Positions 8,698-33,348 are shown, counted from the stretch's first letter. The stretch is DNA of 64,000 nucleotides from an uncultured Spirochaetota bacterium (GCA_963781885.1 CAWAHW010000002.1:512001-576000); one strand, 5' to 3'. The notes: generated from the letters alone by a model not told the origin. Program-made: numbers and translations.

Positions 8698-8714
8698 GGA
8701 CATTTCTAAAGAGT
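8698..8714 (+). promoter_or_regulatory. 17-bp island motif, copy A: GGACATTTCTAAAGAGT
   Basis: One of six near-identical intergenic copies; 29 bp upstream of an extended -10 (TGC-TACACT, hexamer at 8744-8749) before the uxaE-like gene. Confidence 0.8.
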
Positions 8715-8759
8715 ATCCCCTCCCCACGGCCCGGCCTCCCTGCTACACTTCCCGGGGCC

Positions 8760-10460
8760 ATGCTCTTCGGAAAGTTTGACATCAATCCATCCACATCTCC
8801 CGGTGTGCTCGATACCGCCACGTGGGACCGCGCGGCTGCCGCGGCGGAGATACACCGGCACCGGGAGCGCTGGGCGTCCCTGTCGGATGCCGTCGGGGAT
8901 GCCGCCACCTCGCGTCGACCGGGAACACCCGAGGCGACCGTCATCAAGGTGTCCGGGTCCTCGCGCGAGGTGATCGCGCTTGCCGCCCTTTCCGACGGGC
9001 AGCGGGTCTTCCTCCAGATCGGTGGACTTTCGAAGGGCAGCGATCTCGGGCGCCCCTTCTTCCAGCTCCAGCTCCGCGAAAAACTCCTCCTGGCCGCCTA
9101 CCCCGCGGACGCGGCGGTGATCGATCGTTTCTGCACGACGCTTGCGCTTTCCAACGGGCCGCGCGCACTCGGTGGAACGCCGAGGCTGGGAATCGGCACG
9201 CGCATGACGACGCGGCTCTGGCCGGGCATATTCGCCGCCATGCAGCGGCACGGCTTTGCAGCGAATGCCATCCAGAACTCCGTGCGGGAGCTGAACCTTC
9301 TTTCGGATTTGACGAGCGGAGCCGCCCCCGAGCGCAACTACGCGAGCGGTTTCGGCACGATCGAAAGCGGGTACACGGGAAGCACATTCGAGGGCCTCTG
9401 GGTGGCGGGAGTCCTGGCGGCCCTGGAGTACGCGCATCCCCTGACCTATGGGGCGGACGCGGATCACATCCAGGTCAAGCGCGCCGACACCGGTCTTGCC
9501 CGCGCGCGGCGCGTGGTCGATGCCGCCCGGTACTACACGTTCTTCACGCTCGACGTGGCCGACGTGCTGGCCTACGACGCCATCGGTCGAACCGGTGCGG
9601 GCGACGAGCTTCTGCGTCAGAGCATCCCGGCGGACAAAGAGCGGCGCGACGTGCTTTCTTTCCATCGCCAGGCCTCCGGAGACGATCCGGACCTCATCGG
9701 CAGATGCGTGGGGAAGTTCTGGAGGGCGCTCGATGCCGCCGCTCGGCTTGCGGACCACATCGCAGCGTTGCGGGGCGCGGCGGGCTTCGACCTGGAGTTC
9801 GCGTTCGACGAGCACCCGCCCGAAATCGCGGGTCCGGCGTGCATCAGCAGCGACCAGGAGGTGGCATTCGTCGCCCGCGAAATCCGCAGGCGCGGCCTGC
9901 CGGTGACGCATATCGCGCCGAATTTCGGGGTCGAAAAGGGCTTCGACTATCGCCTTGCCGACGGCTATGCGGGACTCTCGACGCGCGTGGCGTCGCATTT
10001 CCGCATCGCCGAGGAGACAGGCTTTCTCCTGGACGTGCATTCGGCCGACGACCTCTCGGGCGAGGCGCGGCGCGCGATCCGTGGCGCCACGGGGGGCAGG
10101 ATGCACTTCAAGATCTCCCCCATGCTCCATTTCATCTTTGCCGAGACCGTGCGCGACAGGCATCCCGATCTCTTCCGCCGCTGGTGGGAGGACTGCCGGG
10201 CCTATGCCATGGAGGAAGCCCAGCGCGGATCCGCATTCGCGGCGGAATGTCTTGCACAGCTCCCCGCGCAGGCGGCGCCGTCACCCACGCAGGACGTCTT
10301 CCGCCATTTCTTTTTTGCCTATCCCGGTCGGCGCGACAGCGCGGGGCGTTTCATCAACCGCGAGGCATTCTACACGCTGCCGGCCGACACCTATGCCGAT
10401 TACCAGGAGAGGATCGCGGCCCACCTGGGCATGCTCGCGGAGGACCTCTTCAATTCCTAG
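8760..10460 (+). CDS. Tagaturonate/fructuronate epimerase (UxaE) family protein
   Basis: PRLGIGTR, QNSVREL, GADADH, FTLD, HSADD and HFKIS motifs; start placed at ATG 8760. Confidence 0.7.
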   Translation: MLFGKFDINPSTSPGVLDTATWDRAAAAAEIHRHRERWASLSDAVGDAATSRRPGTPEATVIKVSGSSREVIALAALSDGQRVFLQIGGLSKGSDLGRPFFQLQLREKLLLAAYPADAAVIDRFCTTLALSNGPRALGGTPRLGIGTRMTTRLWPGIFAAMQRHGFAANAIQNSVRELNLLSDLTSGAAPERNYASGFGTIESGYTGSTFEGLWVAGVLAALEYAHPLTYGADADHIQVKRADTGLARARRVVDAARYYTFFTLDVADVLAYDAIGRTGAGDELLRQSIPADKERRDVLSFHRQASGDDPDLIGRCVGKFWRALDAAARLADHIAALRGAAGFDLEFAFDEHPPEIAGPACISSDQEVAFVAREIRRRGLPVTHIAPNFGVEKGFDYRLADGYAGLSTRVASHFRIAEETGFLLDVHSADDLSGEARRAIRGATGGRMHFKISPMLHFIFAETVRDRHPDLFRRWWEDCRAYAMEEAQRGSAFAAECLAQLPAQAAPSPTQDVFRHFFFAYPGRRDSAGRFINREAFYTLPADTYADYQERIAAHLGMLAEDLFNS

Positions 10461-10470
10461 GAGGCAGGCC

Positions 10471-11148
10471 ATGCAGGTATTTCTGGACAGCGCAGACCCT
10501 CGGGAGATCGTGCAGGCGCGCACATGGGGCGCCATTGACGGAGTGACGACCAACCCGTCCCTGATTTCCCGCGCCGGCCCCGACATGCAGAAGACGCTGC
10601 GGGCCGTGCTGGATGCATCGCCGGGACCCGTGCTCTGCCAGGCCATCGGGTGGGACGATCCTGATTCACTTTCGGGTCAGGCGCGTTGGCTGCACGCCTT
10701 TTCCGACCGCATCATTGTGAAGCTCCCGATGAGCCCGGCCGGCATCATGGCGGTCCAGAAGCTGAAGCGGGAATCACCGGGCATGAAGATCGCCGTCACG
10801 CTCGTCTCATCCATCGCCCAGGCGTACCTCGTGGCAAAGGCGGGCGCGGATATCGTGGCGATATTCAATGGGCCGCTGGAGCAGGCGCTGGACCAGGACG
10901 TGGACCTTGTCGCGCCCGTGCGCACGATGTACGCGAACTACGGCTTCGCAACGAAGATACTTTCGTGCGGACGCTACCCCCGATCCTTCGGGGACTTCGC
11001 GGTGGCCGGGACGGACATCTGCACCATGCGCTTCGAGTTCCTCACGCTTCTCTACGAGCATCCTTTCACGGAGAAGCGCATGCGCGGCTTCATGGACGAC
11101 TGGCGGAAGGTTTTCGCCGATCGGACGTGGCCGGTCGCGGGCGCCTGA
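10471..11148 (+). CDS. Transaldolase / fructose-6-phosphate aldolase family protein
   Basis: MQVFLDSA, GVTTNPSLI, Schiff-base IVKLP, HPFT; RBS GGAGG. Confidence 0.85.
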   Translation: MQVFLDSADPREIVQARTWGAIDGVTTNPSLISRAGPDMQKTLRAVLDASPGPVLCQAIGWDDPDSLSGQARWLHAFSDRIIVKLPMSPAGIMAVQKLKRESPGMKIAVTLVSSIAQAYLVAKAGADIVAIFNGPLEQALDQDVDLVAPVRTMYANYGFATKILSCGRYPRSFGDFAVAGTDICTMRFEFLTLLYEHPFTEKRMRGFMDDWRKVFADRTWPVAGA

Positions 11149-11149
11149 G

Positions 11150-11932
11150 ATGGGCGTGCTCGAGCAGTTCCGGCTGGACGACCGGGTGGCCGTCGTGACG
11201 GGCGGGGCGCGCGGCCTGGGCAGACAGCACGCGCGCGCACTCGCGGAGGCCGGGGCGCGCGTCGCCATTTGCGACCTGCTGGATGAGGCAGGCGAGCGGA
11301 CCCGCGCGGAGCTTGCCGCGATGGGGCGGGACGCATTCTACGGGCGCGCGGACGTGACCGCGGGCGGGGAGCTGGATGCCTTCGTCGAGGAGGTGATGCG
11401 CAGGTTCGGGCGCATCGACATCCTCGTGAACAACGCCGCCATGCCGTCGGAGGGCGTCTCGTTGTCGGACGTCTCCGATGAGCTGTGGCGGAAGATCGTG
11501 GATACAAATCTCTCCAGCATGTTCTACGTCGGCAAGCGCGTCGCCGCGCGCATGCGCGCCGCCGGCCGCGGCAGCATCATCAATATCGGCTCCATCAATT
11601 CCTTCATCATCAGCAACATCGCGCCGCGCCACAACGTCACCTACTGCGTGGCAAAGGCCGGCGTCGCGCAGCTCACGCGCGGCATGGCCGCCGAATGGGC
11701 GACGCAGGGCATCCGCGTGAACGCGCTCGCCCCGGGGTACATCCTCACCGACCAGACGGCCGCGAGCGCGAAGATACCCGAGGTCTACGCGCGCAACGTG
11801 GCGAACACCCCCATGGGCCGGTACGGGCGGCTGGACGAGCTTTCCGGCGCGCTGGTCTTCCTTGCGTCGGATGCCTCGTCATTCATGACGGGGAGCATCC
11901 TCACCCTGGACGGCGGCTACACGATCTGGTAG
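11150..11932 (+). CDS. SDR-family oxidoreductase (gluconate 5-dehydrogenase/KduD-like)
   Basis: TGGARGLG, NNAA, YCVAK, DGGYT. Confidence 0.88.
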   Translation: MGVLEQFRLDDRVAVVTGGARGLGRQHARALAEAGARVAICDLLDEAGERTRAELAAMGRDAFYGRADVTAGGELDAFVEEVMRRFGRIDILVNNAAMPSEGVSLSDVSDELWRKIVDTNLSSMFYVGKRVAARMRAAGRGSIINIGSINSFIISNIAPRHNVTYCVAKAGVAQLTRGMAAEWATQGIRVNALAPGYILTDQTAASAKIPEVYARNVANTPMGRYGRLDELSGALVFLASDASSFMTGSILTLDGGYTIW

Positions 11933-11938
11933 GCGGCG

Positions 11939-12793
11939 TCATCCCTTGAGGCCGGTCGTCGCCATTCCCTGGATGATCCGTCTCTGGAATATGTAGTAGA
12001 AAATGACCTGGGGGATCAGGACGATGATGACCGCGCGCATGACGGCCGCCACGTCCATCCCGTACTGCTGCTTGAAGAAGGCCGCCGCGAGCGGGATCGT
12101 GAAATTCCTGATATTGCTCAGGATGACCGATGCCAGCGTCCACTCGTTCCAGGCCCAGATGAAATTGAAGATGATGAGCGTCGTTATCACCGGCGCGATC
12201 AGGGGGGCGACGATCCCGAAGATCAGCTTGGGGAGGCGGCATCCATCCATGATCGCGGCCTCTTCCAGCTCCAGGGGAACCGACTTGAGACCGCCGACGA
12301 AGACAAGCGTGTTGAAGGGCAGCGATCCCGCGATATAGGGAAGAGGGAGGCCGAAGATGCTGTCGATGCCAAGGCCGATTGGCTTCAGCTTGAGCGCGAG
12401 CAGGTAGATCGGGAAAAGGACAATGAAAAGGGGAACCGCATTGCCCATCAGGAAGAGGAAATAGAAGAAGTTGCCGAATGCGGCGTGCCGGTGGTGCAGA
12501 CGGGCGATGGCGAACGAGCTCAGGAAGTTGATCAGGATGCAGCCGATCGTCGTGAGGGAGGCCACGATCACGCTGTTCTTGAACAGCGTGGGCATATGGG
12601 ACTTCGAGAAGGTGTCGGCGTAGAGGGAGAGGTCCCATTTGTTCGGCAGGCTGAGCGGCGCGTTGTAGATTTCGGTGTTTCCCTTGAAGGAGAGGATGAA
12701 GCCCCAGACGAAGGGAAAGATCATGAAGGCGCAGATGATGAGGGAAACGAGGATCAGCAGCAGGCGCGTCGGGATTGTGGTGCCACTCGACAT
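11939..12793 (-). CDS. Carbohydrate ABC transporter permease
   Basis: EAA motif ELEEAAIMDGC, WAWNEW, FQRRIIQG. Confidence 0.9.
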   Translation of the reverse strand: MSSGTTIPTRLLLILVSLIICAFMIFPFVWGFILSFKGNTEIYNAPLSLPNKWDLSLYADTFSKSHMPTLFKNSVIVASLTTIGCILINFLSSFAIARLHHRHAAFGNFFYFLFLMGNAVPLFIVLFPIYLLALKLKPIGLGIDSIFGLPLPYIAGSLPFNTLVFVGGLKSVPLELEEAAIMDGCRLPKLIFGIVAPLIAPVITTLIIFNFIWAWNEWTLASVILSNIRNFTIPLAAAFFKQQYGMDVAAVMRAVIIVLIPQVIFYYIFQRRIIQGMATTGLKG

Positions 12794-12802
12794 GTTCTGC
12801 TC

Positions 12803-13756
12803 CTACGCCTCGACCCGCTTCGCGGTGATCCGCAGGAATCCAATGGAAAACACCATCATGACCAGGAACATGAGCAGCGCGACGGCCGATGCGTAGCCCG
12901 CCCTGCGCTCGGCGAGAAATATGTCGTACAGGAGGGTGCCGATATTGTGCGACTTGAAGTTCGGCTGGCCGTTGGTCAGGATATAGACGGTCTGCATGCT
13001 CTGGATGGCGTTGATGAAGACGTACACCGCGACGATCTTCAATGTCTCCTTGAGCATCGGCAGCGTGATGTAGCGGGTCTTCTGGGCCGAAGAGGCGCCG
13101 TCCATCTTCGCCGCCTCATAGAGCTCGGTCGGTATCAGCTTGAGACCGGCAAGAAAGAGCACCGAATAGAAGCCCAACGCTTTCCAGCTCTCGATGACGG
13201 CCACCGTGTAGGGTGTCAATGTCGGCCCGCCGATCCACTTGAAGGCAAGAAAGCCCATGTGATTGGCCTTGAGGAAGATGTTGAGCAGGCCGATCCCCGG
13301 ATCGACGACGAAGAACCATACGAGCGTGGTGATGATGGGCGATAGGATATAAGGCGTGAAAACCAGGAGCTTCACGACGCCGTTTCCCCGGAAATCCCTG
13401 TTGATGAAGAGCCCCAGCAGGAATGAAACGGGGAGGATGAGGGCAAGCTCGAGCACGGTGATGATGAGCGTATTCTTCAGCGCGATGGAGAGGTGGCCGT
13501 CGCTTGCCATCGATACGAAGTTGGCCACCCCGACAAACTTGCCGGGATAGAAGCTCGACTTGTCCGTGAATGCGATGGCCAGCGAGTAGACGATGGGATA
13601 CAGCACGTAGACGCAGAAAAATGCCAGGGAGGGAAGGAGCAGGAGGAGCTTTATCCACCGCTTGCAGTACATGAACACCGATGTCCTCCTCTGTTCTCCC
13701 GCGGCGGCCATTCGCGAGAGAGCCGAATCCTTGCGGATTCGGCTCTCGTTCATCAA
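12803..13756 (-). CDS. Carbohydrate ABC transporter permease
   Basis: ELYEAAKMDGAS, ITLPML, FVGVANF, GYASAVA. Confidence 0.9.
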   Translation of the reverse strand: MMNESRIRKDSALSRMAAAGEQRRTSVFMYCKRWIKLLLLLPSLAFFCVYVLYPIVYSLAIAFTDKSSFYPGKFVGVANFVSMASDGHLSIALKNTLIITVLELALILPVSFLLGLFINRDFRGNGVVKLLVFTPYILSPIITTLVWFFVVDPGIGLLNIFLKANHMGFLAFKWIGGPTLTPYTVAVIESWKALGFYSVLFLAGLKLIPTELYEAAKMDGASSAQKTRYITLPMLKETLKIVAVYVFINAIQSMQTVYILTNGQPNFKSHNIGTLLYDIFLAERRAGYASAVALLMFLVMMVFSIGFLRITAKRVEA

Positions 13757-13775
13757 ATCGAACCCCGATGCCGGA

Positions 13776-15119
13776 CTATTTCGGCAGCTTGGGGATTACC
13801 TCGTCGATGGCGGCATCCATCTTGGCGAGCTCGCCCGGGATGTCGGCCGCGGTCATGGAGCCGTTCATGAGGCTGTTCTCCAGGTTGCCGCGGATCGTTC
13901 CCCAGCCCTGGGTCCACAGGTCACCGTTGGAACTCCACTGCCAGTAGGGCGCGTAGTCGGAGTTCATAAGACCTGTATAGGACTTATCCTGGATCATCGC
14001 AACCTGCTGCTTCATGATCGGTCCGAGGCCCGACATGTCGATCTTCACGTTCACGGGCATGATCGTGCCGACCTTCAGTGCGAGCTGTGCTCCTTCCGAG
14101 CTGTAGCGCCACTTGTTGAAGGCGACGATGGCCTTGAGCTTGTCCGGATCACTGGCGGCAGTCGCGCCGATCCCGAATGCGTTCCCGACCGACCGGACGA
14201 TCCGCTTCTGGTTGTACTTCTTCGCCACCGGGTCGGTGAAGGCGAAGCCGAAGTTGAACACGTAGTTCTTCTCCAGCGGCTGGCCGATGATCTTGCCCAG
14301 CTGATCGGAGGGAAGGGTGATCATCGCCGCGTTGCCGGCGTTGAACATGGCGCACATCTGGTCGAAGCTCATGGTGGCGTTGTCCTCGGGGAAGGCCCCC
14401 AGGGCGCGCAGCTCCGCCTCGCGGTAGTATGCCTGGCCGAAATCGGCGTCGACGGCCTTCAATGTGTGGTCCTTGAACACCGCCTTGGCCTGTTCCCAGA
14501 TCCCGTACTGCATGAGCCACGCCTGGTAGCCCCAGACCGCCCATCCTTCCTTGGATCCGTACGCGATCGTCACGACGCCGTTCTTCTTGAACGTCGCGAC
14601 GCAGTTCTTGAGCTGATCGAATGTGGTCGGTATCTTCAGTCCGTACTTGTCAAAGAGGGCCTTGTTGTAGACCCATCCCTGGACCTGCATCTCGGTGGGG
14701 AATCCGGCGATCTTGCCGCCCGCGCTGGTGAGGTTGGTCAAGGCGCCTTCCACGAAGGTTGCCTTGAAGGCCGGGTCATAGAAGGGAGTGCAATCGACGA
14801 CCGACGTGGTCCTGTTGAGGAAGTCGACTAGGTGGGTTCCGTTGTCCCAGAACATGTCGGGCATGGAGTTGGACTGGGCCATGATCTCAAGCTTCTGCTG
14901 CAGGGTGTCGTGGTCCACGATCTGGTAATCGACGGAGATGTTGGGGTACTTCTTCATGTAGGTATCGAGTGTCACCCCGACCATGTCCGTTTCCCGGCCG
15001 ATGAAAGTCATGTAGCTGAAGTTTACCTTCTTTGTGGTTCCCTGTGCCTGCGCCCCGACTGTGGCGGAAAGCGTCACAAGGCACAGCAGGACCAAGAGAG
15101 CGGTGACGAGTTTTTTCAC
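13776..15119 (-). CDS. Carbohydrate ABC transporter substrate-binding protein
   Basis: Signal peptide, YNKALFDKYGLKIPTTFDQL; strong RBS AGGAGG before GTG. Confidence 0.88.
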   Translation of the reverse strand: MKKLVTALLVLLCLVTLSATVGAQAQGTTKKVNFSYMTFIGRETDMVGVTLDTYMKKYPNISVDYQIVDHDTLQQKLEIMAQSNSMPDMFWDNGTHLVDFLNRTTSVVDCTPFYDPAFKATFVEGALTNLTSAGGKIAGFPTEMQVQGWVYNKALFDKYGLKIPTTFDQLKNCVATFKKNGVVTIAYGSKEGWAVWGYQAWLMQYGIWEQAKAVFKDHTLKAVDADFGQAYYREAELRALGAFPEDNATMSFDQMCAMFNAGNAAMITLPSDQLGKIIGQPLEKNYVFNFGFAFTDPVAKKYNQKRIVRSVGNAFGIGATAASDPDKLKAIVAFNKWRYSSEGAQLALKVGTIMPVNVKIDMSGLGPIMKQQVAMIQDKSYTGLMNSDYAPYWQWSSNGDLWTQGWGTIRGNLENSLMNGSMTAADIPGELAKMDAAIDEVIPKLPK

Positions 15120-15345: not shown

Positions 15346-15362
15346 ACTCGATAGAAATGTCC
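15346..15362 (-). promoter_or_regulatory. 17-bp island motif, copy B: GGACATTTCTATCGAGT
   Basis: 17 bp upstream of the TTGACA of the sugar ABC promoter. Confidence 0.8.
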
Positions 15363-15391: not shown

Positions 15392-15408
15392 GGACATTTC
15401 AATCGAGT
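15392..15408 (+). promoter_or_regulatory. 17-bp island motif, copy C: GGACATTTCAATCGAGT
   Basis: Back-to-back with copy B; 38 bp upstream of a candidate -10 TAAGGT (15447-15452) before eda1. Confidence 0.8.
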
Positions 15409-15493: not shown

Positions 15494-16147
15494 ATGGGAA
15501 TGAAAAGGGACGTCCTGGACGCCCTGCACGAAAGCGGCGTCGTCGCCGTCATCCGCACGGAGAATCCACGCGACCTCGCGGCGGTGGCGCGTGCGCTGCA
15601 CGCCGGCGGGGTGCGCTGCGTCGAAATCACGATGACCGTGCCCGGCGCGCTGGACATCATCCGCGACGCCTGCGCCACGCTCTCCGGCATCGACGTGTTC
15701 ATCGGGGCGGGCACGGTGCTCGACGCGGTGAGCGCGCGGGCGGCCATCATCGCGGGGGCCCGGTTCGTCGTGGGTCCCGGCTTCGACCCGGAGATCGTGA
15801 AGACGTGCGCCCTGTACGGCGTCATGAATATGCCGGGCGCCTTCACACCGCAGGAGATCCTCTCCGCCTGGAAGGGCGGTGCGGACGTCGTGAAGGTGTT
15901 TCCGGCCGATCTTGGCGGTCCGGATTACATCAAGACGGTGCGCGAGCCGCTTCCCCAGATATCGCTCCTGCCGACAAAGGGCATCGACTTTTCCACCGCG
16001 GGGGCCTATATCAAGGCAGGTGCCTTTGCCGTCGGGGCGGGCGGCGCGCTGGTGAGCAAGGCGCTTATTGCCGCGGGGGACTACGATCGGATCACCGCCA
16101 ATGCGCGCGAGCTCGCCCGGATCGTGCGCGAGGCGAGGAAAGGGTAG
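15494..16147 (+). CDS. eda: KDPG/KHG aldolase (copy 1)
   Basis: VVAVIR, EITMTVPGA, IGAGTVLD, VKVFPA. Confidence 0.88.
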   Translation: MGMKRDVLDALHESGVVAVIRTENPRDLAAVARALHAGGVRCVEITMTVPGALDIIRDACATLSGIDVFIGAGTVLDAVSARAAIIAGARFVVGPGFDPEIVKTCALYGVMNMPGAFTPQEILSAWKGGADVVKVFPADLGGPDYIKTVREPLPQISLLPTKGIDFSTAGAYIKAGAFAVGAGGALVSKALIAAGDYDRITANARELARIVREARKG

Positions 16148-16151
16148 GCCG

Positions 16152-22101: not shown

Positions 22102-22146
22102 GATAACCTCCCTGGAGCGCCGGGCTTCAGACCGGGCGCGCCGGCA

Positions 22147-23292: not shown

Positions 23293-23317
23293 TTGTGTCT
23301 CCTCTCCCCGCGCCGGC

Positions 23318-26485: not shown

Positions 26486-26495
26486 GTTTCTTCTC

Positions 26496-27281
26496 TCACT
26501 TTCCCACGACAGGGTTGCGCAGCACGCCGATGCCCTCGATCTCCACCTCGAAGACGTCCCCCGGCCGCAACCACGTGGGCGGCGTCTGGGCGAATGCGCA
26601 TCCGGCCGGGGTGCCCGTGGAAAGGACGGAGCCCGGCAGGAGCGTCATTCCCTGGGACAGGTAGCTCACCAGGAAGGCGACGTCGAAGATGAGGTCCGCG
26701 GTGGAGGCGTCCTGCATCGTCTTTCCGTTGAGTCTCCCCTGGATGTGGAGATGCGTTGGATCGAGCTCCGTCTCGATCCAGGGACCAAGGGGACAGAAGG
26801 TATCGAACGATTTTGCCCGCGACCATTGGCCGTCCTTGTTCTGCACGTCGCGGGCGCTCACGTCGTTCGCGCAGGTGTAGCCGAAGACGTACTTCAGCGC
26901 ATCCTTGCGGTCCACGTTCCGCGCCGGCTTTCCGATCACGACGGCGAGCTCGGACTCGTAGTCGATCTGGCCGGGTGCGACGTGGGGAAGGACGATGGGC
27001 GACCCGGGATCGGTGACGCAGGAGGAGGACTTCATGAAGAGCAGCGGTTCCGTCGGGGGCGCCTCTCCGCCTTCGGCCGCGTGCGCCTTGTAGTTCCTGC
27101 CGAAGCAAAGAAGATTGACGGGGATGAGGGGCGCCAGGAGCTTCACGTCCGCCATCGGCAAGGGGCGGCCGTCCTTTTTCCAGTTGCCGAAAATGTCCCC
27201 GGCGATGGGCTGGGCCTTGTCGCCCTCCAGGATCGCGTGGACTACCGCGCCCTTGGCCGTTCGAATGCGTGAGATTTTCAT
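26496..27281 (-). CDS. Fumarylacetoacetate hydrolase family protein
   Basis: GRNYKAH, DYESELAVVIG, NDVSARD, KSFDTFCPLGP, TGTPAG. Confidence 0.9.
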   Translation of the reverse strand: MKISRIRTAKGAVVHAILEGDKAQPIAGDIFGNWKKDGRPLPMADVKLLAPLIPVNLLCFGRNYKAHAAEGGEAPPTEPLLFMKSSSCVTDPGSPIVLPHVAPGQIDYESELAVVIGKPARNVDRKDALKYVFGYTCANDVSARDVQNKDGQWSRAKSFDTFCPLGPWIETELDPTHLHIQGRLNGKTMQDASTADLIFDVAFLVSYLSQGMTLLPGSVLSTGTPAGCAFAQTPPTWLRPGDVFEVEIEGIGVLRNPVVGK

Positions 27282-27367: not shown

Positions 27368-27384
27368 ACTCTATAGAAATGTCC
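27368..27384 (-). promoter_or_regulatory. 17-bp island motif, copy D: GGACATTTCTATAGAGT
   Basis: 16 bp upstream of TTGACA; same geometry as copy B. Confidence 0.8.
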
Positions 27385-28025: not shown

Positions 28026-29270
28026 TCAGGTGCCGGCCAGCCAGGAATACGGCTTCTCGATGGAGTCTTTCACACTCCGCAGGAAGCGCGCCGCCGGCGC
28101 CCCGTCGACAAGGCGGTGGTCGAATGTCAGGCTCAGCACGACCATGCGTCGTATGGCGACCGTTCCCGCATCCGCATCGGTGACGACCTGCCGGGCGACG
28201 ATGCGCCCCACGCCGAGCACGGCGCATTCCGGCAGGTTGATGATCGGTGTGAATGCATCGATGTCGTAGGCGCCGAGATTCGTGATTGTGAATGTCCCGC
28301 CGCGCAGGTCCTCTGCCGCCACGCGGCCCTCTCGGGTCGCCTCCACAAGGTGCGCGGAGACTTCAGCGATCTGTCGCAGACTCTTTCCCTGCACCGACCT
28401 GATCACGGGGACCAGGAGGCCTCGCTCCGTGTCGACCGCGAGCCCCACGTTCACCTCGGGCGGCCGCACGATCTCGTTACCCTCGAGGCGCGCATTGCAC
28501 GCGGGGTGCTCCCGCAGCGCGCGGGCCGCGATGAGGATGAGCATGTCATTGTAGGTCGGCACGACGGGCGCGCCTTCCTTCTTGAACATCGCGCGCAGCC
28601 GTACCATCTCCGTGGCATCCGCCTCCGTGGTGAGCGTCACCGCCGCGGTGGTCTGCGCGCTTGCGGCCATCCTCTGCGCGATCACCCGGCGCGGGCCGCT
28701 GATCGGCGCTGCGGCTGCGGGCACGGGGCCTGCGGCAGCCCCAACGTCCGCGCCGGCCCGCGCGGCCTGCCGCACGTCGCGTTCCACGATGCGGCCCGTC
28801 CGGCCCGAACCGCCGAGTGTCTCCCAGGCCACGCCCAACTCCCCGGCGACGCGCTTTGCGCGCGGGCTGATGGCGGGACGCCCGGTCTGTGTCGGGGCGG
28901 CGCGCGGTATTGCCGCCGCGGCGGTTGGGGCGGCCGCAGGCGCGGCAGCGGCGGGCGCGGGGACAGCGATTTCCGCCGGGGCTTCGGTGGCGGCAGGCGC
29001 GCCCGCCGGCTTCGGTTTGGCTTCACCCGGCGCGAGCAGATAGGCCAGAAGCGTGCCGACCGGCACCGCCTTTCCCTTGGGAGGGCATTCCGGGGGGATA
29101 TAGAGGATGCCGCTTTCCAGAGCCTCACACTCCTGGATCGCCTTGTCGCTCTCCACCTCGAAGAGGATCTCTCCCGCCGTGACGGTGTCGCCCTCGTTTT
29201 TGCGCCAGCCGGCGAGCGCCCCCTCCTCCATGTTCCACCCCAGGCGGGGCATCACGATTTCGAATGCCAT
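28026..29270 (-). CDS. Dihydrolipoamide acyltransferase (E2)
   Basis: Lipoyl domain VESDKA, Ala/Pro linker, E3-binding ISPRAKR..GSGRTGRI, catalytic DHRLVDG. Confidence 0.9.
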   Translation of the reverse strand: MAFEIVMPRLGWNMEEGALAGWRKNEGDTVTAGEILFEVESDKAIQECEALESGILYIPPECPPKGKAVPVGTLLAYLLAPGEAKPKPAGAPAATEAPAEIAVPAPAAAAPAAAPTAAAAIPRAAPTQTGRPAISPRAKRVAGELGVAWETLGGSGRTGRIVERDVRQAARAGADVGAAAGPVPAAAAPISGPRRVIAQRMAASAQTTAAVTLTTEADATEMVRLRAMFKKEGAPVVPTYNDMLILIAARALREHPACNARLEGNEIVRPPEVNVGLAVDTERGLLVPVIRSVQGKSLRQIAEVSAHLVEATREGRVAAEDLRGGTFTITNLGAYDIDAFTPIINLPECAVLGVGRIVARQVVTDADAGTVAIRRMVVLSLTFDHRLVDGAPAARFLRSVKDSIEKPYSWLAGT

Positions 29271-29283
29271 CCCATGCCCCCGA

Positions 29284-30266
29284 TCACTCGGCCAGCAGGT
29301 CGCGCACCGCCTTCACCACGGTGCGTGTCTCCGGAACCACGTCCTGGAAAAGGGAGGGGCTGTACGGAGCGGGGCAGGAGAGCCCCGTGAGCCTCGCCAC
29401 CGGCGCGTCAAGGTCGTCGAAACCCTTCTCCATCACCTGCGTGGCGATCTCCGCCGCCGCGCCGCACGGAGCGAAGTCCTCGTCCACCACGAGCAGCCGG
29501 CCCGTCTTTTCACGGACGTGAGGACGGTGTCGATGTCAAGCGGCGCGAGGCTGCGCGGATCGATCACTTCGATGCTGATTCCTTCCTTGGAAAGCTCCTC
29601 AGCCGCCTCGAGTGCCTTCTTCACCATGAAGGCGATCCCGACCACGGTTGCATGCGTGCCTTCCCGCGCAACCGCCGCCTTTCCGAACGGCACGAGGTGC
29701 TCGCCGTCCGGCACGGGCCCCTTCAGGTTGAGCAAATTCTTGTGCTCCAGGAAGAGGACCGGGTCGTCGCATCGGATGGACGTCTTGAGGAGCCCTTTTG
29801 CGTCGGCGGGCGTGGTCGGCATGACGACGCGAAAGCCGGGCACATGCATGAAGAAGGGGTAGTAGTTGCCCGAGTGATGCGCCGCGTTGAAGGGCGCGAC
29901 GCCGACGCATCCGCGCACGACAATCGGCATCTTCAGGCGCCCGCCGCTCATCCACTGGAGCTTCGCCATCTGGTTGAACATGTCGCCGAAGGCGTCGGTG
30001 AGAAAGTCGATGAACATGAAATCCACGATCGGCCGCGCGCCGCTTGCCGCCGCGCCGGTGCACAGGGCGGTGAAGCCGCGCTCCGAGATGGGGGTATCGC
30101 GCAGGCGCTCTTCTCCATAGAGGGCGTGGAGGCCGACGGTCGTATTGAAGTTGCCGCCCCGCGCCCCGATGCCTTCGCCCACCACGAAGATCCGGGAGTC
30201 CCGGGCCATTTCCTCTGCAAGACCCTCGCGGGCCGCGTCGACAAAGCTCATTTCGCGCATCTGCAT
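29284..30266 (-). CDS. TPP-dependent 2-oxoacid/acetoin dehydrogenase E1 beta subunit (apparent frameshift near 29507)
   Basis: DTPISE, DDPVLFLEHK, EVIDPRSLAPLD. The C-terminus (DEDF..DLDAPVARL) lies in another frame; adding one base to the T4 run restores VKKTGRL. Confidence 0.82.
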
Positions 30267-30267
30267 C

Positions 30268-31255
30268 TCATCCTTCGGCGTACACGTGACTCATGACCGA
30301 TCCGGGCTCGGGCAGGGGGCTCGCCAGCGCAAAGGCAGCCGCCTCCTCCGCCATTTGCTTCACCTCGGCATCGATGGCGTCCAGCTCTTTCTTCGTGGCC
30401 ACCGCGCCGGCGACGATCTTCGCCCCCAGCAGCCCGATCGGGTCACGGCTCTTCCATTCCGCGACCTCCTCCTGCGTGCGGTAGCCGGCGTCGCGCATGC
30501 CTTCAGAGTGCGCGCGCGTGCGGTAGGTCTTGCATTCGATGAGGGTCGGACCCTCTCCGGCGCGTGCGCGCCGGACCGCCTCCCCGGCCGCCTGCCAGAC
30601 CGCGAGCACGTCGTTGCCGTCCACCTCGACGCCGGGAAGCCCATAGGCCGCGGCGCGCGACGCGACGCTGGTGTTCTTCGTCGCCTTTTTGTACGGCACC
30701 TCGGTGGCGTACATGTTGTTCTCGCAGACGAAGATCGGCGGGGATGTCCCACGCCGCGGCGAGATTGATGCCCTCGTGGAAGGAGCCATTGTTTGTCGCC
30801 CCGTCGCCAAAGAAGGCCACTCCGACGCGGTCGATTTTCAGGATCTTCGCCGCATAGCCGGTGCCCGCGGCAAGGGTGATGCTGGGTCCGACGATGCCGC
30901 TGGAGCCCATGAACCCTATTTCCGGCTTGAAGATGTGCATGCTCCCGCCGCGGCCGCCCGAGCAGCCGGTCGCCCTGCCGAGCACCTCGGCAAAAAGCTC
31001 GCGCGGCGGCACGCCCTTGGCCAGCGCGTGCCCGTGGCCCCGGTGCGTGCTGAATACGCAGTCATCGCTTCGCAGGTGCGCGCAGACCCCGGTGGCGACC
31101 GCCTCCTCGCCGATGTAGGTGTGCACGCCGCCGTACAGCTTGCCCGCCGCATACATCTTCACGAGCTGCTCTTCACAGCGACGAAGGACGAGCATCGTGC
31201 GGTACAGGGCGAGCATCTGTTCCTTGGTGAGAGCGGGTATCTTTTTCTTGGCCAT
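30268..31255 (-). CDS. TPP-dependent dehydrogenase E1 alpha subunit (apparent frameshift near 30740)
   Basis: HTYIGEEA, STHRGHGH, GRGGSMH, GDGATNNGSFHE in one frame; IFVCENN, VDGNDV, KTYR and RDPI in the next. Confidence 0.82.
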
Positions 31256-31290
31256 TCCGGCGTTCCTCCCGGGCTTCGTGCCCGCAGATT

Positions 31291-32109
31291 TCAGTTGATC
31301 TTCGTGACGCCGGCCTGGCCGCCGGCGTTCATGGCGGTGTTGCCGCCGTCGAAGGGGAAGAGGACGCCCGTGATCCAGGCGGATGCGTCCGACGCGAGCA
31401 GCAGCGCGATGCCCTTCACGTCCTCCGGCTGCCCGAATCTGCCTATGGGGATGCCCTCCTGCATACGCTTTTCGATCTCCGGATTCGCCGCCCATAAGCC
31501 CTGGAGGCCGGCGTTGGTGACCTGCGCGGGAAGGATCGCGTTCACGCGGACGCCGCGCCCGGCCCATTCGGTGCTCAGCTCCCGGGTCATCTCCGCGACG
31601 GCGCCCATGCCGACGCTGTAGGCGAAGTTGCCGCGGCCCAGCGCGGTGAGGCTCGCGATGGAGCCCATCATGATGATGCTGCCCTTGCCCTGTCTCAGCA
31701 TCCGGTGACCCGCCTCCTGCGCGCAGCAGAAGCGTGCAACGGTGAGACCCATGACGACCTGCTGGTAGTGCTCAAGGTCGATCTCCTCCGCCGAGCAGCG
31801 GTAGCCCGGGCCGACGAGCGCGGCGCAGATGTCGATGCGGCCGTATTCCTTGTCCAGTGCCGCGTAGACCGCCTTGATGTCCTCCACCTTTGTCATGTCG
31901 CCGGGCACGACGAGCACCTTGCGCCCGAGTTTTTTCGCATAGTCGGCAGTCGCCGCAATGCCCGCCACGTTGCTGTGCCGGGGAAGGAGCAGGTCCGCCC
32001 CCGCCTCTGCAAACGCCATCGCCATTGCCTGGCCCATGCCCGATGCGGCCCCGGTGACGAGGGCGACGCGGCCGTGTAAGTCAAACATGTCCAGTACCGT
32101 GCGCGCCAT
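31291..32109 (-). CDS. SDR-family oxidoreductase
   Basis: TGAASGMG, YSVGM (atypical YxxxK), VRVNAI, FDGG; ATG 32109 with GGAGG RBS. Confidence 0.82.
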   Translation of the reverse strand: MARTVLDMFDLHGRVALVTGAASGMGQAMAMAFAEAGADLLLPRHSNVAGIAATADYAKKLGRKVLVVPGDMTKVEDIKAVYAALDKEYGRIDICAALVGPGYRCSAEEIDLEHYQQVVMGLTVARFCCAQEAGHRMLRQGKGSIIMMGSIASLTALGRGNFAYSVGMGAVAEMTRELSTEWAGRGVRVNAILPAQVTNAGLQGLWAANPEIEKRMQEGIPIGRFGQPEDVKGIALLLASDASAWITGVLFPFDGGNTAMNAGGQAGVTKIN

Positions 32110-32182
32110 GGTGTACCTCCGCGTATTGTATGCTCGGTGACGGAACAATGCTAAGGTAGCCAAAGCGATTTGCCCACGCAAG

Positions 32183-32199
32183 GGACAATTCTAAAGAGT
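32183..32199 (+). promoter_or_regulatory. 17-bp island motif, copy E: GGACAATTCTAAAGAGT
   Basis: In the divergent intergenic region between the SDR/E1/E2 operon and a UroD-fold gene. Confidence 0.75.
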
Positions 32200-32227
32200 C
32201 GGCCAGGAAATCCCGGAGGAGGCCTCC

Positions 32228-33301
32228 ATGACTTCGCGCGAAAGGGTCCTTTCCGCGCTCCATCACGTCCAGCCGGACGTCACACCCTGCGACTATTTCT
32301 CCACGCCGGAGATACAGCGCGGTCTCCTGGATCGCCTGCGTGTCTCGTCGGAGGAGGCGCTGCTGGACCGGCTGGGGGTGGACATCCGCTACGTCGCGCC
32401 GCCCTACACGGGACCGCGGCTTCCCTCCTACGATGACGGCTCGGAGACGGACATATGGGGGATCCGCAAGAAGCCGATGCCGAACGACTACGGCGATTAT
32501 GCGGAGCCCGTGGGACTTCCCTATGCGGGCTGGACCACGGTGGAGGAGGCCGCGGTTTTTCCCTGGCCGAGCCCGGACTGGTACGACTATTCTGCAATGC
32601 CCGCCCTCTGCGCGCGCTATCCCCATCGTGCCGTGGCGGTCGGCGGCTTCGGGATACAGGATTTCATCAACGGCACCGCATTTGGGCGCGGCGTGGAGCA
32701 GGTGCTTCTCGATATCGCCCTCGATGACCCGGTGTACCTCTTCATCGTGGAGAAAAGGCACCGTTTCGCCCTCCAGCACATCGACAGGATACTCACGGCG
32801 GCAAAGGGAAGGATCGACCTCGTCCTCTGCGGCGATGATTTCGGCAGTCAGCGCGGCACGCTCATCTCCCCGACGTCCTTCGACACCCTGTTCGCGCCGC
32901 GCAAGAAGGAGTTCTTCGACATGGTCCATTCCCACGGCGCGAAGGTCACGCATCACTGCTGCGGATCCAGCCGCGCGTTCTTCCCCCGGTTCATTGCGCT
33001 GGGCATGGACAGCATCCAGACGATACAGCCGCGCGCCGAAGGCATGAACCCCTACACGCTCAAGGCGGAGTTCGGCGGCCGCATCTGCCTGCACGGGGCG
33101 GTGGATGTCCAGGGATGGCTGCAGCACACGAAGCCCGACATGATCCGAAGCGAGGTGCACCGGCTCATGGACGAGGTGGGCAGCGGCGGCGGGTACATCC
33201 TCGCTCCCAGCCACAACCTGCAGCCGGACACGCCCATCGAAAACGTGCTGGCCGTCTATTCCGCCGTGGCCGAGCGCCGGGGCGACCCGAAGCTCGCGTA
33301 G
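32228..33301 (+). CDS. Uroporphyrinogen decarboxylase-fold protein
   Basis: MTSRERV, DIWG, GDDFGSQ, HHCCG, GGYILAPSHNLQPDTP. Confidence 0.85.
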   Translation: MTSRERVLSALHHVQPDVTPCDYFSTPEIQRGLLDRLRVSSEEALLDRLGVDIRYVAPPYTGPRLPSYDDGSETDIWGIRKKPMPNDYGDYAEPVGLPYAGWTTVEEAAVFPWPSPDWYDYSAMPALCARYPHRAVAVGGFGIQDFINGTAFGRGVEQVLLDIALDDPVYLFIVEKRHRFALQHIDRILTAAKGRIDLVLCGDDFGSQRGTLISPTSFDTLFAPRKKEFFDMVHSHGAKVTHHCCGSSRAFFPRFIALGMDSIQTIQPRAEGMNPYTLKAEFGGRICLHGAVDVQGWLQHTKPDMIRSEVHRLMDEVGSGGGYILAPSHNLQPDTPIENVLAVYSAVAERRGDPKLA

Positions 33302-33331
33302 GAAAGCGGGCGCGCGCGAAGGTCGCCGAGA

Positions 33332-33348
33332 GGACATTTCAAAAGAGT
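33332..33348 (+). promoter_or_regulatory. 17-bp island motif, copy F: GGACATTTCAAAAGAGT
   Basis: 20 bp upstream of TTGACA (33369-33374) before the LDH2 gene. Confidence 0.8.

What the first reader, a model, noticed from the sequence alone, without database searches (positions are those of the whole stretch)
8698..33348. Candidate new system: a domesticated IS1202/ISNCY transposase regulating a sugar-acid catabolic island through IS-end-like sites
Seen: a catalytically degenerate transposase homologue with an intact N-terminal HTH region sits inside the island (17382-18542). Six copies of GGACAWTTCWAWMGAGT occupy the island's intergenic regions, and I found none by eye outside 8.6-33.4 kb. Recalled, needs checking: ends of IS1202/ISNCY elements carry tandem non-palindromic transposase-binding repeats of the form GGACATTTCTA(N)n close to a terminal TTGACA. 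Inference: the transposase lost catalysis, kept its end-recognition specificity and was exapted as a transcription factor, with former end repeats serving as operators. I know of no described bacterial metabolic regulon run by a dead DDE transposase of this family.
Basis: partly seen in the sequence, partly recalled or inferred. Interest (0 to 1): 0.93.

Follow-up and report, generated by a model that had tools for sequence, protein, structure and literature searches.

The report
Dead transposase turned sugar-acid gene regulator
A spirochaete keeps a single catalytically dead copy of an insertion-sequence transposase, and the 17-base sites in front of its sugar-acid genes match the sequence that live relatives of that transposase carry at their element ends, so it looks like a bacterial jumping-gene enzyme reused as a gene regulator.

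Summary
GGACAWTTCWAWMGAGT occurs 6 times in the window against 0.02 expected and 7 times in the 4.64-Mb genome.

The gene at 17382-18542 is a full-length homologue of IS1202-family (ISTde1-type) transposases. It has an HTH region, an RNase H-like core and a beta-barrel, but all three DDE residues are replaced. It belongs to a single DDE-less clade. It is single-copy, syntenic in five related genomes and under purifying selection, with dN/dS 0.11.

A weight matrix built only from the spirochaete sites finds tandem, outward-pointing copies at the ends of 46 of 49 (left) and 44 of 49 (right) distinct active relatives, with 2 hits elsewhere in 546 kb. All 32 right ends examined read motif-N8/9-motif-N1-TTGACA.

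In the host the sites are single. They are conserved while their flanks diverge. They usually sit 16-17 nt upstream of a -35 hexamer. A Treponemataceae genome whose copy is only 40% identical repeats the whole arrangement.

Best reading: a domesticated transposase acts as the transcription factor of a sugar-acid island. Binding and regulation are inferred, not shown. Six literature searches found no bacterial precedent.

The parts
17382..18542 (+). dTnp: DDE-less IS1202-family (ISTde1-type) transposase homologue, 386 aa, the proposed transcription factor
   Evidence: HTH domains only; NF033594 at 156.7 bits against a cut-off of 250. (the D, D, E positions read V, Q, N). (AF2 pLDDT 82.4; fold matches IstA, TnsB, MuA and retroviral integrases). 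(single copy). (dN/dS 0.107).
17285..17323 (+). dTnp's own promoter: palindrome TTGTTAACAA (17285-17294) abutting the -35 TTGACA (17295-17300), then a 17-nt spacer and the -10 TATCCT (17318-17323). No 17-mer site here.
   Evidence: 10 of 12 promoter match. (TGTTAACAATTGACA invariant in 4 genomes). (the palindrome is unique in the window and in the genome).
8698..8714 (+). Site 1, upstream of the UxaE-like gene (ATG 8760), followed by the TAL/FSA-type aldolase and an SDR gene
   Evidence: The site is invariant in 3 genomes (17 of 17 columns) while 31% of other columns are invariant.
8760..11932 (+). Target unit: UxaE-like epimerase (8760-10460), transaldolase/FSA-family gene (about 10477-11148), SDR (about 11170-11932)
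15346..15362 (-). Site 2, 17 nt upstream of the -35 TTGACA (15328-15323), with -10 TAGGAT. It heads the ABC sugar transporter operon.
   Evidence: Conserved in 5 genomes.
11939..15119 (-). Target unit: solute-binding protein (13776-15119) and two permeases (12803-13756, 11939-12793)
15392..15408 (+). Site 3, divergent partner of site 2, 14 nt upstream of TTGATG (15423-15428). It heads eda1-pfkB1.
15494..17195 (+). Target unit: KDPG/KHG aldolase (15494-16147) and PfkB kinase (about 16158-17195)
18567..21155 (+). Second aldolase (18567-19223), second PfkB kinase (about 19220-20251) and an SDR (20328-21155), directly downstream of dTnp. The order pfkB1-dTnp-eda2-pfkB2 is conserved in G053 and G062; G068 has pfkB1-dTnp-pfkB2 without eda2.
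27368..27384 (-). Site 4, 16 nt upstream of the -35 TTGACA (27351-27346), with -10 TAGTGT. It heads the FAH operon.
21199..27281 (-). Target unit: FAA-hydrolase-family gene, 2-hydroxyacid dehydrogenase, DUF6786-like gene, two URO-D-like genes, DHDPS-family gene
32183..32199 (+). Site 5, in the 117-nt gap between SDR3 (ATG 32109, minus strand) and URO-D-like gene 3 (ATG 32228). Its GGACA end lies 1 nt from a leftward -35-like TTGCGT (32181-32176). This is a different geometry: reversed, with the centre near -45 for the SDR3-E1-E2 operon.
   Evidence: The same layout occurs in G068, which lacks the URO-D gene. The site is absent in G053.
28026..32109 (-). Target unit: SDR3, 2-oxoacid dehydrogenase E1 alpha (read in two frames in this assembly), E1 beta, E2
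33332..33348 (+). Site 6, 20 nt upstream of the -35 TTGACA (33369-33374). It heads the Ldh_2-family dehydrogenase (ATG 33416) and the GntR-type gene.
33416..35253 (+). Target unit: Ldh_2-family dehydrogenase and a GntR/FCD-type regulator (two frames in this assembly). The regulator is the rival candidate binder.

Best explanation
The gene at 17382-18542 descends from an ISTde1-type (IS1202 family) insertion-sequence transposase. It lost its catalytic DDE triad but kept its two-part N-terminal helix-turn-helix region. It was retained by the host as a sequence-specific DNA-binding protein.

It recognises the same asymmetric 17-bp sequence (GGACATTTCTAWMGAGT) that active relatives carry as tandem subterminal repeats at both element ends. 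In the host this sequence occurs as single copies in the promoters of about seven transcription units. Together these units form a sugar-acid/uronate-type catabolic island: UxaE-like epimerase, KDPG aldolases, KDG-type kinases, an ABC transporter, dehydrogenases and a 2-oxoacid dehydrogenase complex.

Shown here:
- homology to the transposase family;
- loss of catalytic residues across one clade;
- single copy, conserved synteny and purifying selection;
- identity of the sites with IS-end repeats;
- conservation and fixed placement of the sites in promoters.

Inferred: the protein binds the sites and controls transcription.

Most sites point towards the gene, and the motif ends 16-17 nt before the -35 hexamer, which puts its centre near -61. 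That spacing is kept even when the distance between the two divergent sites changes (22, 46 or 49 bp). From this I infer that the protein acts from a fixed position relative to RNA polymerase. Activation in the manner of a class I activator is the most likely mode, at about 55% given that binding occurs. Repression is the alternative. The protein has its own promoter, which carries a different conserved palindrome, so its level may be set by another regulator.
For: (a) Transposase ancestry with dead chemistry.
- The alignment to NF033594 is full-length.
- The AF2 model has HTHs at 3-110, an RNase H-like core at 136-290 and a beta-barrel at 314-375.
- Its best PDB fold matches are IstA (E 1e-12), TnsB, MuA and retroviral integrases.
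- Of 118 homologues of 330 aa or more, 75 have D-D-E and 43 lack it. The 43 include all of P0002-P0043 that were scored.
- The 43 form one side of a single branch, SH-aLRT 100. With 221 rows, the clade has 47 members and all are DDE-less.

(b) Host gene, not element.
- There is one copy in the genome and no active copy.
- No IS-end repeats flank it, and it lies 24 nt from the next gene.
- The order pfkB1-dTnp-eda2-pfkB2 is kept in G053 (86% identity) and G062 (51%). G068 (54%) has pfkB1-dTnp-pfkB2 without eda2.
- NG86 dN/dS for G000-G053 is 0.107 overall: N-terminus 0.053, core 0.135, C-terminus 0.142. The flanking kinases give 0.053 and 0.067.

(c) Sites equal IS ends.
- Six identical Hydrogenedentes copies define the element ends: two tandem repeats at each end, a terminal TTGACA, and 16-bp target duplications.
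- A matrix trained on 23 spirochaete sites hits the left end of 46 of 49 distinct active loci and the right end of 44 of 49. Six of the eight missing ends are at loci that lack enough flanking DNA. There are 2 hits elsewhere in 545,910 nt.
- All 32 right ends examined read motif-N8/9-motif-N1-TTGACA.
- The N-terminal DNA-binding part is the part best conserved towards active transposases: 45% identity, against 33% for the core and 27% for the C-terminus.

(d) Sites behave as operators.
- There are 7 in 4.64 Mb, with nothing between 14 and 29 bits.
- In orthologous promoter alignments, 76-100% of motif columns are invariant against 10-31% of other columns. This covers five promoter sets of 3-5 genomes each.
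- Of 40 sites in six genomes, 19 have a sigma-70-like promoter (score 8 of 12 or better) whose -35 starts 15-20 nt after the motif, at 16-17 nt in 14 of the 19.
- 15 of the 40 have an exact TTGACA 9-20 nt downstream, against a background of 1.1e-4 per position.

(e) Co-occurrence.
- In 25 genomes of the family, the five with an orthologue have 7, 8, 9, 5 and 3 sites. Three others have 1 each and 17 have none. The reversed-pattern control gave 1 hit in all.

(f) Independent replicate.
- A Treponemataceae genome whose copy is 40% identical has 9 sites (control 1). Eight of them lie in the 28 kb next to the gene.
- They sit in front of the same kinds of genes: eda, SDR, E1 alpha, 2-hydroxyacid dehydrogenase, UxaE and the solute-binding protein.
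Against: - No binding or expression data exist. No RNA run was listed.
- Motif, dTnp and the island's enzymes always occur together. The pfkB1 orthologue (above 82% identity) is found only in the same five genomes. Co-occurrence therefore cannot tell which island protein binds the motif.
- A GntR-type regulator is conserved in the island in G000, G068, G062, G063 and G492.
- The protein evolves faster than its neighbours: 50-55% identity between G000 and G068/G062, against 84% and 73-77% for the two kinases.
- Distribution is patchy: 5 of 20 other genomes of the genus have a match, two of them only fragments. None of 400 further sampled Spirochaetota genomes has a close match.
- One genome (G066) has a 41%-identical fragment and no site.
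- Site 5 has a different geometry and is missing in G053.
- Several sites lack a convincing downstream promoter. Two of the 32 one-mismatch sites look like chance hits, near an SNF2 helicase and an FtsX permease.
- Many target promoters already have a perfect -35, which is unusual for activator-dependent promoters.
- Promoters are predicted from consensus only.
Confidence: 0.8

Rival explanations
1. Relic element: the ORF is a decaying insertion-sequence copy and the 17-mers are leftovers of old IS or MITE ends with no present function.
For: The 17-mer is the end repeat of active relatives. The island is accessory and patchily distributed. The protein diverges faster than its neighbours.
Against: - The frame is open in all four full-length orthologues and in the 40% relative.
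- dN/dS is 0.107.
- One clade of 43-47 proteins shares the loss.
- The gene has no end repeats around it, and no tandem or terminal arrangement occurs anywhere in the genome.
- The single sites are far better conserved than their flanks and keep a fixed distance to -35 hexamers.
Confidence: 0.03
2. Another regulator, most plausibly the GntR/FCD-type protein encoded next to the Ldh_2 gene, binds the 17-mer. The DDE-less protein would then have some other role or none.
For: A GntR-type gene is conserved in the island in five of the six genomes. Co-occurrence cannot separate it from dTnp.
Against: - The site is asymmetric. By my recollection, not tested here, GntR-family operators are typically short inverted repeats.
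- The site is the same sequence as the end repeats of the active homologues of dTnp across many phyla. By the established logic of transposition, the transposase binds its own ends.
- dTnp keeps that DNA-binding region best.
- In this assembly the GntR gene reads in two frames. That may be an assembly error.
Confidence: 0.05
3. The protein binds the sites, but its main role is not control of the adjacent promoters. Possible roles are pairing or looping sites as a dead synaptic complex, acting as a decoy or inhibitor against incoming ISTde1-type elements, or guiding a partner nuclease or recombinase.
For: The fold keeps the core and the C-terminal barrel that in relatives build multimeric transpososomes, and both are under purifying selection. 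Divergent site pairs resemble paired ends.
Against: - The sites sit at a fixed distance from -35 hexamers and point to the genes.
- The spacing between paired sites is free (22, 46 or 49 bp) while each site keeps its distance to its own promoter.
- The genome holds no active element to defend against.
- No recombinase gene was seen in the island.
Confidence: 0.1

Closest known systems
ISTde1 subgroup of the IS1202 family (formerly ISNCY) of insertion sequences
   Same: Full-length homology of the protein, the same fold classes, and the same 17-bp recognition sequence as the subterminal repeats. The active relatives found here make 16-bp target duplications and have ends beginning TGT. This fits the subgroup as described in bioRxiv 10.1101/2022.12.17.520857 (passages read).
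   Different: No DDE triad, no inverted repeats around the gene, single copy, fixed synteny. The recognition sequence occurs singly in promoters, not in tandem at termini.
Element-encoded DNA-binding regulators that share the transposase's end-binding domain (IS1 InsA, IS911 OrfA, the Tn5 inhibitor, the phage Mu repressor). Recalled, not from a call.
   Same: A transposase-type DNA-binding domain is used to control transcription by binding element-end or operator sequences.
   Different: Those proteins regulate the element itself and travel with it. Here the targets are host catabolic operons, and no element is left.
TldR, TnpB-derived nuclease-dead RNA-guided repressors (abstracts seen in the listing: PMC10705468, PMC13622181)
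   Same: A bacterial transposon-encoded protein that lost catalysis and was recruited to regulate host genes.
   Different: TldR descends from an RNA-guided RuvC nuclease and finds its targets through a guide RNA. This protein descends from a DDE transposase and would read DNA directly through HTH domains, at sites that equal the old element ends.
REP-associated tyrosine transposases (RAYT) with REP/BIME sequences (abstract of PMC3333891 seen)
   Same: A single-copy domesticated bacterial transposase paired with genome-dispersed copies of its former end sequence.
   Different: RAYTs are HUH/Y1 enzymes that keep catalysis and act on hundreds of REP hairpins. No regulon of promoters is involved.
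Eukaryotic transposase-derived transcription factors (ZBED, abstract of PMC3606216; SETMAR with Hsmar1 inverted repeats and FHY3/FAR1, recalled)
   Same: The same evolutionary logic: the DNA-binding domain is kept, transposition is lost, and former end sequences or related motifs serve as cis-regulatory sites.
   Different: Here the host is a bacterium, the promoters are sigma-70 type, the target is a metabolic island, and the whole dead catalytic core is retained.

Membership tests
IS1202 family / ISTde1-type transposase (as an active element) | Full-length homology with N-terminal HTH, RNase H-like core and C-terminal domain | tested here: met
   Residues 27-387 of the 402-aa ORF align to positions 2-364 of the 368-position NF033594 model. 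AF2 model and Foldseek matches to IstA, TnsB and MuA.
IS1202 family / ISTde1-type transposase (as an active element) | Score above the curated NCBIfam cut-off for 'ISNCY family transposase' | tested here: not met
   156.7 bits against a cut-off of 250
IS1202 family / ISTde1-type transposase (as an active element) | Catalytic D-D-E triad | tested here: not met
   V, Q, N at the three columns. 75 of 118 homologues have DDE; the 43 in this protein's clade do not.
IS1202 family / ISTde1-type transposase (as an active element) | Gene flanked by terminal inverted repeats (tandem 17-mers, TGT...TTGACA termini) and 15-17 bp target duplications | tested here: not met
   No matrix hit near the gene; the nearest site is about 2 kb away. 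The stop codon lies 24 nt from the next gene. Active relatives do have this structure.
IS1202 family / ISTde1-type transposase (as an active element) | Multiple copies or variable location | tested here: not met
   One copy in the genome. Same position between the two kinase genes in G053, G068 and G062; in G063 the partial copy lies next to pfkB1 at a contig end.
Domesticated (exapted) transposase | Loss of catalytic residues shared by a monophyletic group | tested here: met
   Single branch with SH-aLRT 100 and one change. Clade of 47, all DDE-less, in the 221-row tree. The root is assumed to lie on the DDE side.
Domesticated (exapted) transposase | Single-copy orthologues in conserved synteny under purifying selection | tested here: met
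   dN/dS is 0.107 for the only unsaturated pair; other pairs have dS above 1.
Domesticated (exapted) transposase | A demonstrated host function | not testable with these tools
   Needs genetics or biochemistry. No RNA run was listed.
Bacterial transcription factor with an operator regulon | Over-represented sites confined to promoters of functionally linked genes and conserved across genomes | tested here: met
Bacterial transcription factor with an operator regulon | This protein binds these sites | not testable with these tools
   Inferred from the identity of the sites with the end repeats of its active homologues and from the conserved HTH region
Bacterial transcription factor with an operator regulon | Binding changes transcription; an effector modulates it | not testable with these tools
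   Only promoter geometry is available
GntR-family operator (rival binder) | Short inverted-repeat operator (recalled property of the family) | tested here: not met
   The 17-mer is asymmetric and has a fixed orientation towards the genes. The only conserved palindrome seen, TTGTTAACAA, lies at the dTnp promoter.

The most novel reading that the evidence does not exclude
The regulon was wired by the element itself. ISTde1-type ends carry the binding repeat and finish in an outward-facing TTGACA. Inserted ends, or end fragments, could therefore have supplied portable promoters that respond to the transposase. The host later froze these promoters and the transposase into a regulator-operator system. 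The retained dead core and barrel may still contact the TTGACA, or pair sites as in a transpososome, so that regulation would work through a remnant of synaptic-complex assembly rather than through a classical activator contact.
Probability: 0.2. Interest if true: 0.95.

Novelty: new variant of a known kind. Interest (0 to 1): 0.88.

Why it matters
Reuse of transposases as transcription factors, with former element ends as their binding sites, is a textbook theme in eukaryotes. In bacteria the known cases are of other kinds: RNA-guided TnpB derivatives, still-catalytic RAYTs, and regulators that serve the element itself. Six full-text searches found no bacterial DDE transposase turned host regulator.

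This case offers four things:
- a clean, testable example with a defined 17-bp site, a small regulon and living active relatives for comparison;
- a new family of bacterial DNA-binding regulators that annotation pipelines label 'transposase' or leave unnamed;
- a way to ask how a regulon is assembled from mobile DNA;
- a warning that 'transposase' genes inside catabolic islands need not mark mobility.

Tried and rejected
- Sigma-54 or ECF promoter reading of the motif. I considered this by eye and rejected it: there is no GG-N10-GC pattern, and the sites lie upstream of sigma-70-like hexamers.
- Direct descent of the motif-plus-TTGACA module from intact IS ends. The spacing differs. In the host the motif ends 16-17 nt before TTGACA. 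In the element the distance is 1 nt for the outer repeat and about 27 nt for the inner one. I saw no remnant of a second repeat between motif and -35. This idea is kept only as the novel case.
- Separating the motif from the island by looking at genomes without dTnp. This failed, because genomes without dTnp also lack the island's pfkB1 orthologue.
- More DDE-less loci from metagenomes. 
- RNA evidence: no RNA holder was listed for window:15100-18600.
- Slip: I gave the UxaE gene as 8822-10460, which is the wrong frame (no Pfam hit). It was corrected to 8619/8760-10460.
- Gene calls in other genomes come from my own GC3-based ORF picker and are approximate, so distances to start codons are rough.
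- Figures and supplementary files of the IS1202 paper (logos of the ends, table of elements) were not available. They may already show the tandem repeats. The passages I read mention a conserved region 'around position 20', and the words 'subterminal' and 'internal repeat' do not occur.
- Complex prediction was not used, because no protein-protein claim is made.

Full report
**Observation.** The pattern GGACAWTTCWAWMGAGT occurs six times in the window, at exactly the places named (8698+, 15346-, 15392+, 27368-, 32183+, 33332+). Up to two mismatches were allowed, yet all six are exact. The expectation was 0.02, and none of 100 shuffles gave six. The window is 65% G+C, so this A+T-rich word is not a compositional effect.

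The window lies in a 4.64-Mb assembly of 7 contigs. The pattern has 7 exact copies there, the seventh at C4:97296. I trained a weight matrix only on 23 sites from four other genomes. It gives exactly these seven hits above 14 bits in the whole genome, and all score 29 bits or more. All six window sites are intergenic, and five point towards the adjacent gene.

**The genes.** Pfam assigns the island as follows:
- a UxaE-like epimerase;
- a transaldolase/FSA-family gene;
- three SDRs;
- an ABC sugar transporter;
- two KDPG/KHG aldolase plus PfkB-kinase pairs;
- a DHDPS-family gene;
- three URO-D-like genes;
- a 2-hydroxyacid dehydrogenase;
- a FAH-family hydrolase;
- a DUF386 protein;
- 2-oxoacid dehydrogenase E1 alpha, E1 beta and E2;
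- an Ldh_2-family dehydrogenase;
- a GntR-type regulator.

**The protein.** The ORF 17334-18542 most likely starts at the GTG at 17382. This is where homologues begin, and GGGGAGG lies upstream. That gives 386 aa.
- Pfam finds only HTH_32, HTH_28 and HTH_29, and no rve domain even at E<=10.
- NCBIfam's 'ISNCY family transposase' model aligns end to end, but at 156.7 bits against a cut-off of 250.
- An AlphaFold2 model built on 37 relatives has pLDDT 82.4 and pTM 0.62. It shows two helical HTH modules (3-110), an RNase H-like alpha/beta core (136-290) and a C-terminal beta-barrel (314-375).
- Its best PDB matches are the IS21 transposase IstA (E 1e-12), TnsB, MuA and retroviral integrases.

The whole transposase architecture is therefore present.

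**Dead chemistry in one clade.** In an alignment with active relatives, the positions of the two Asp and the Glu read V, Q and N. Of the 120 best database hits, 118 are 330 aa or longer. Of these, 75 have D-D-E and 43 do not, and the 43 are the closest relatives plus one more distant protein.

In a maximum-likelihood tree the 43 form one side of a single branch (SH-aLRT 100, one change). After rooting on an active protein, the stem is long (0.86) and the tips lie 1.94 from the parent node, against 0.56 for the sister group.

An exhaustive search of 1.84 billion cluster representatives found 85 proteins at E<=1e-30. Adding the representatives of 330 aa or more gave a 221-row tree. There the clade has 47 members, all DDE-less. 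Eight further DDE-less representatives lie elsewhere, which points to at least two more losses (FastTree, with columns assigned by an add-to-alignment step, so this is tentative).

**A host gene.**
- The genome has one copy. The next-best matches to the family model score 27 bits or less.
- Orthologues occur in four other genomes of the same genus: 86%, 55%, 51%, and 59% over a fragment cut by a contig end. A 41%-identical fragment occurs in a fifth.
- The order pfkB1-dTnp-eda2-pfkB2 is kept in G053 and G062, and G068 has pfkB1-dTnp-pfkB2 without eda2.
- For the one pair that is not saturated (G000-G053, dS 0.68), dN/dS is 0.107. By region it is 0.053 in the HTH part, 0.135 in the core and 0.142 in the C-terminus. 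The flanking kinases give 0.053 and 0.067.
- In more distant pairs the protein is 50-55% identical while the kinases are 73-84%. It therefore evolves faster than the enzymes, and dS is saturated there.

**The sites are IS-end repeats.** A scan of one genome per species with the DDE-less alignment returned four spirochaete orthologue loci and 76 loci of active-type relatives from many phyla.

Six identical copies in one Hydrogenedentes genome define the element. It begins TGTCGA and ends TTTGACA. It is flanked by 16-bp target duplications. Each end carries two tandem copies of the 17-mer pointing outward.

The matrix trained on the spirochaete promoter sites gave these results:
- It finds the left end in 46 of 49 distinct active loci.
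- It finds the right end in 44 of 49.
- Six of the eight missing ends are at loci that lack enough flanking DNA.
- It finds only 2 hits elsewhere in 545,910 nt of flanks.

In 32 of 32 right ends the layout is motif, 8-9 nt, motif, 1 nt, TTGACA, end. The 16-bp duplications and the TGT termini fit the ISTde1 subgroup of the IS1202 family as described in bioRxiv 10.1101/2022.12.17.520857. I read passages of that paper only, and its figures and supplements were not available.

The N-terminal region of the dead protein is the part most similar to the 75 active proteins: 45% identity, against 33% for the core and 27% for the C-terminus. It holds 27 of the 52 columns that are conserved at 90% or more across all 118 sequences.

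**The sites behave as operators.** In the host they are single, never tandem and never next to a terminus. I aligned orthologous promoters and compared invariant columns inside and outside the motif:

| Promoter | Genomes | Motif columns invariant | Other columns invariant |
|---|---|---|---|
| SBP | 5 | 82% | 10% |
| Ldh_2 | 4 | 76% | 14% |
| FAH | 4 | 82% | 16% |
| UxaE | 3 | 100% | 31% |
| eda1 | 3 | 88% | 27% |

Of 40 sites in six genomes, 19 are followed by a sigma-70-like promoter scoring at least 8 of 12. In these the -35 starts 15-20 nt after the motif, and at 16-17 nt in 14 of the 19. Fifteen of the 40 have an exact TTGACA 9-20 nt downstream, where the genome-wide frequency is 1.1e-4 per position.

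The two divergent sites between the transporter and eda1 are 46, 49 and 22 bp apart in three genomes, yet each keeps its distance to its own -35.

Site 5 is different. Its GGACA end lies 1 nt from a leftward -35-like hexamer of the SDR3-E1-E2 operon. The same layout occurs in G068, and the site is missing in G053.

The seventh site of the genome heads a KARI-like gene plus a xylose-isomerase-like TIM-barrel gene, next to an arabinofuranosidase gene.

**Co-occurrence and its limit.** Among 25 genomes of the family, the five with an orthologue have 7, 8, 9, 5 and 3 sites at one mismatch or fewer. Three others have one site each and 17 have none. The reversed control pattern gave one hit in all. 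However, the island's pfkB1 orthologue is also confined to those five genomes. Motif, protein and enzymes therefore travel together, and the GntR-type gene does too. Co-occurrence supports a unit but does not identify the binder. A sample of 400 further Spirochaetota genomes held only 28-33% identical, mostly multi-copy, active-type relatives.

**An independent replicate.** A Treponemataceae genome carries a 40%-identical DDE-less copy. It has 9 sites at two mismatches or fewer (control 1), and 8 of them lie within the 28 kb next to the gene. That stretch holds the same kinds of genes: pfkB1 at 74%, eda1 at 64%, Ldh_2 at 64%, UxaE at 54%, plus TAL, URO-D-like genes, E1/E2, 2-hydroxyacid dehydrogenase, FAH, DUF386 and GntR. 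Sites lie in front of eda, SDR, E1 alpha, the 2-hydroxyacid dehydrogenase, UxaE and the solute-binding protein, with TTGACC or TTGACT 15-18 nt downstream.

**Mechanism.**
- Shown: ancestry, loss of catalysis, host-gene behaviour, identity of the sites with IS-end repeats, and conserved, promoter-locked placement.
- Inferred: the protein binds the sites through its two-part HTH region, one protein per asymmetric site, as its active relatives must do at their ends. From a centre near -61 it controls RNA polymerase.

Strict spacing to the -35, together with free spacing between the paired sites, fits a factor that touches the polymerase. I put activation at about 55% given that binding occurs. 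Repression remains open, because many targets already have a perfect -35, and because site 5 and the short UxaE and URO-D leaders fit less well.

The gene has its own promoter (TTGACA-17-TATCCT) without the 17-mer. That promoter overlaps a palindrome, TTGTTAACAA, which is unique in the genome and invariant in four genomes. A longer palindrome occupies the same place in the Treponemataceae locus. This suggests that another dimeric regulator, possibly the GntR-type protein, sets the level of the dead transposase. That is speculation.

**Rivals.**
- A decaying element is contradicted by selection, synteny, the shared loss across a clade, and the conservation of the sites.
- Binding by another regulator cannot be excluded by co-occurrence. 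It would, however, require that a different protein happens to recognise the exact end repeat of this protein's active relatives.
- A non-transcriptional role for binding (pairing, decoy or immunity) is possible, but it fits the promoter geometry less well.

**Comparison and novelty.** The protein is a derived homologue of ISTde1-type transposases but fails every test for being an active element. In function it resembles element-encoded end-binding regulators and, more closely, eukaryotic transposase-derived transcription factors. Among bacteria, the cases my searches brought up are TnpB-derived TldR repressors and RAYT/REP. No search found a DDE transposase turned host regulator. I rate it a new variant of a known kind, of high interest, and directly testable.

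Noticed in passing
window 17285-17300: The palindrome TTGTTAACAA abuts the -35 of the dTnp promoter. It is unique in the 4.64-Mb genome. TGTTAACAATTGACA is invariant in four genomes, and the Treponemataceae locus has a longer inverted repeat at the same place (L012 about 9870-9900). It could be the operator of a different, dimeric regulator that controls dTnp.
   Followed up: partly
window 34353-35253: The GntR/FCD-type regulator downstream of the Ldh_2 gene reads in two frames in this assembly: the wHTH part in 34353-35009 and the FCD-like part in 34867-35253. Homologues are conserved in the island in G068, G062, G063 and G492. This is either a true frameshift or an assembly indel.
   Followed up: partly
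window 30268-31567 (minus strand); also L137 744-1395: The E1 alpha gene of the 2-oxoacid dehydrogenase is split between two frames (Pfam E1_dh positions 2-154 and 153-299 fall on overlapping ORFs). In G062 the two matched parts are contiguous. eda1 of G068 is likewise split. Indel errors in long-read assemblies are a plausible cause.
   Followed up: partly
L013-L088 (for example L013 9905-9955 and 11441-11490): Active ISTde1-type elements from many phyla share a strict end architecture: two 17-bp direct repeats 8-9 nt apart, the outer one 1 nt from a terminal TTGACA. That is an outward-facing perfect -35 hexamer at both ends. The passages I read of the IS1202-family paper do not mention tandem subterminal repeats.
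   Followed up: partly
proteins P0132, P0135, P0144, P0162, P0170, P0188, P0205, P0230: Eight further cluster representatives of the family lack one or both of the first two Asp residues and fall outside the clade studied here (3 changes on a 221-row FastTree). These may be independent domestications or decayed copies. Their genomic contexts could not be fetched.
   Followed up: partly
G000 C4:97296-97312 (L154 7296-7312): The only site outside the island heads a ketol-acid-reductoisomerase-like gene and a xylose-isomerase-like TIM-barrel gene, next to an alpha-L-arabinofuranosidase gene. TTGCCG-16-TATACT begins 17 nt downstream of the motif.
   Followed up: partly
window 22147-25533 and 32228-33301: Three URO-D-like (uroporphyrinogen-decarboxylase-fold) paralogues and a weak DUF6786-like gene sit inside a sugar-acid island, and they are conserved in all related islands. 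Their role in this pathway is unclear.
   Followed up: no
window 15494-17195 and 18567-20251: The dead transposase gene lies exactly between two old paralogous aldolase-kinase pairs (56-58% identical to each other).
   Followed up: no
G000 C4:798470, C4:802491, C5:311588, C5:320505, C6:30149, C6:34724: A multi-copy element with ORFs of 407-409 aa matches the ISNCY model only weakly (about 23 bits). It is probably an unrelated active IS family in the same genome.
   Followed up: no
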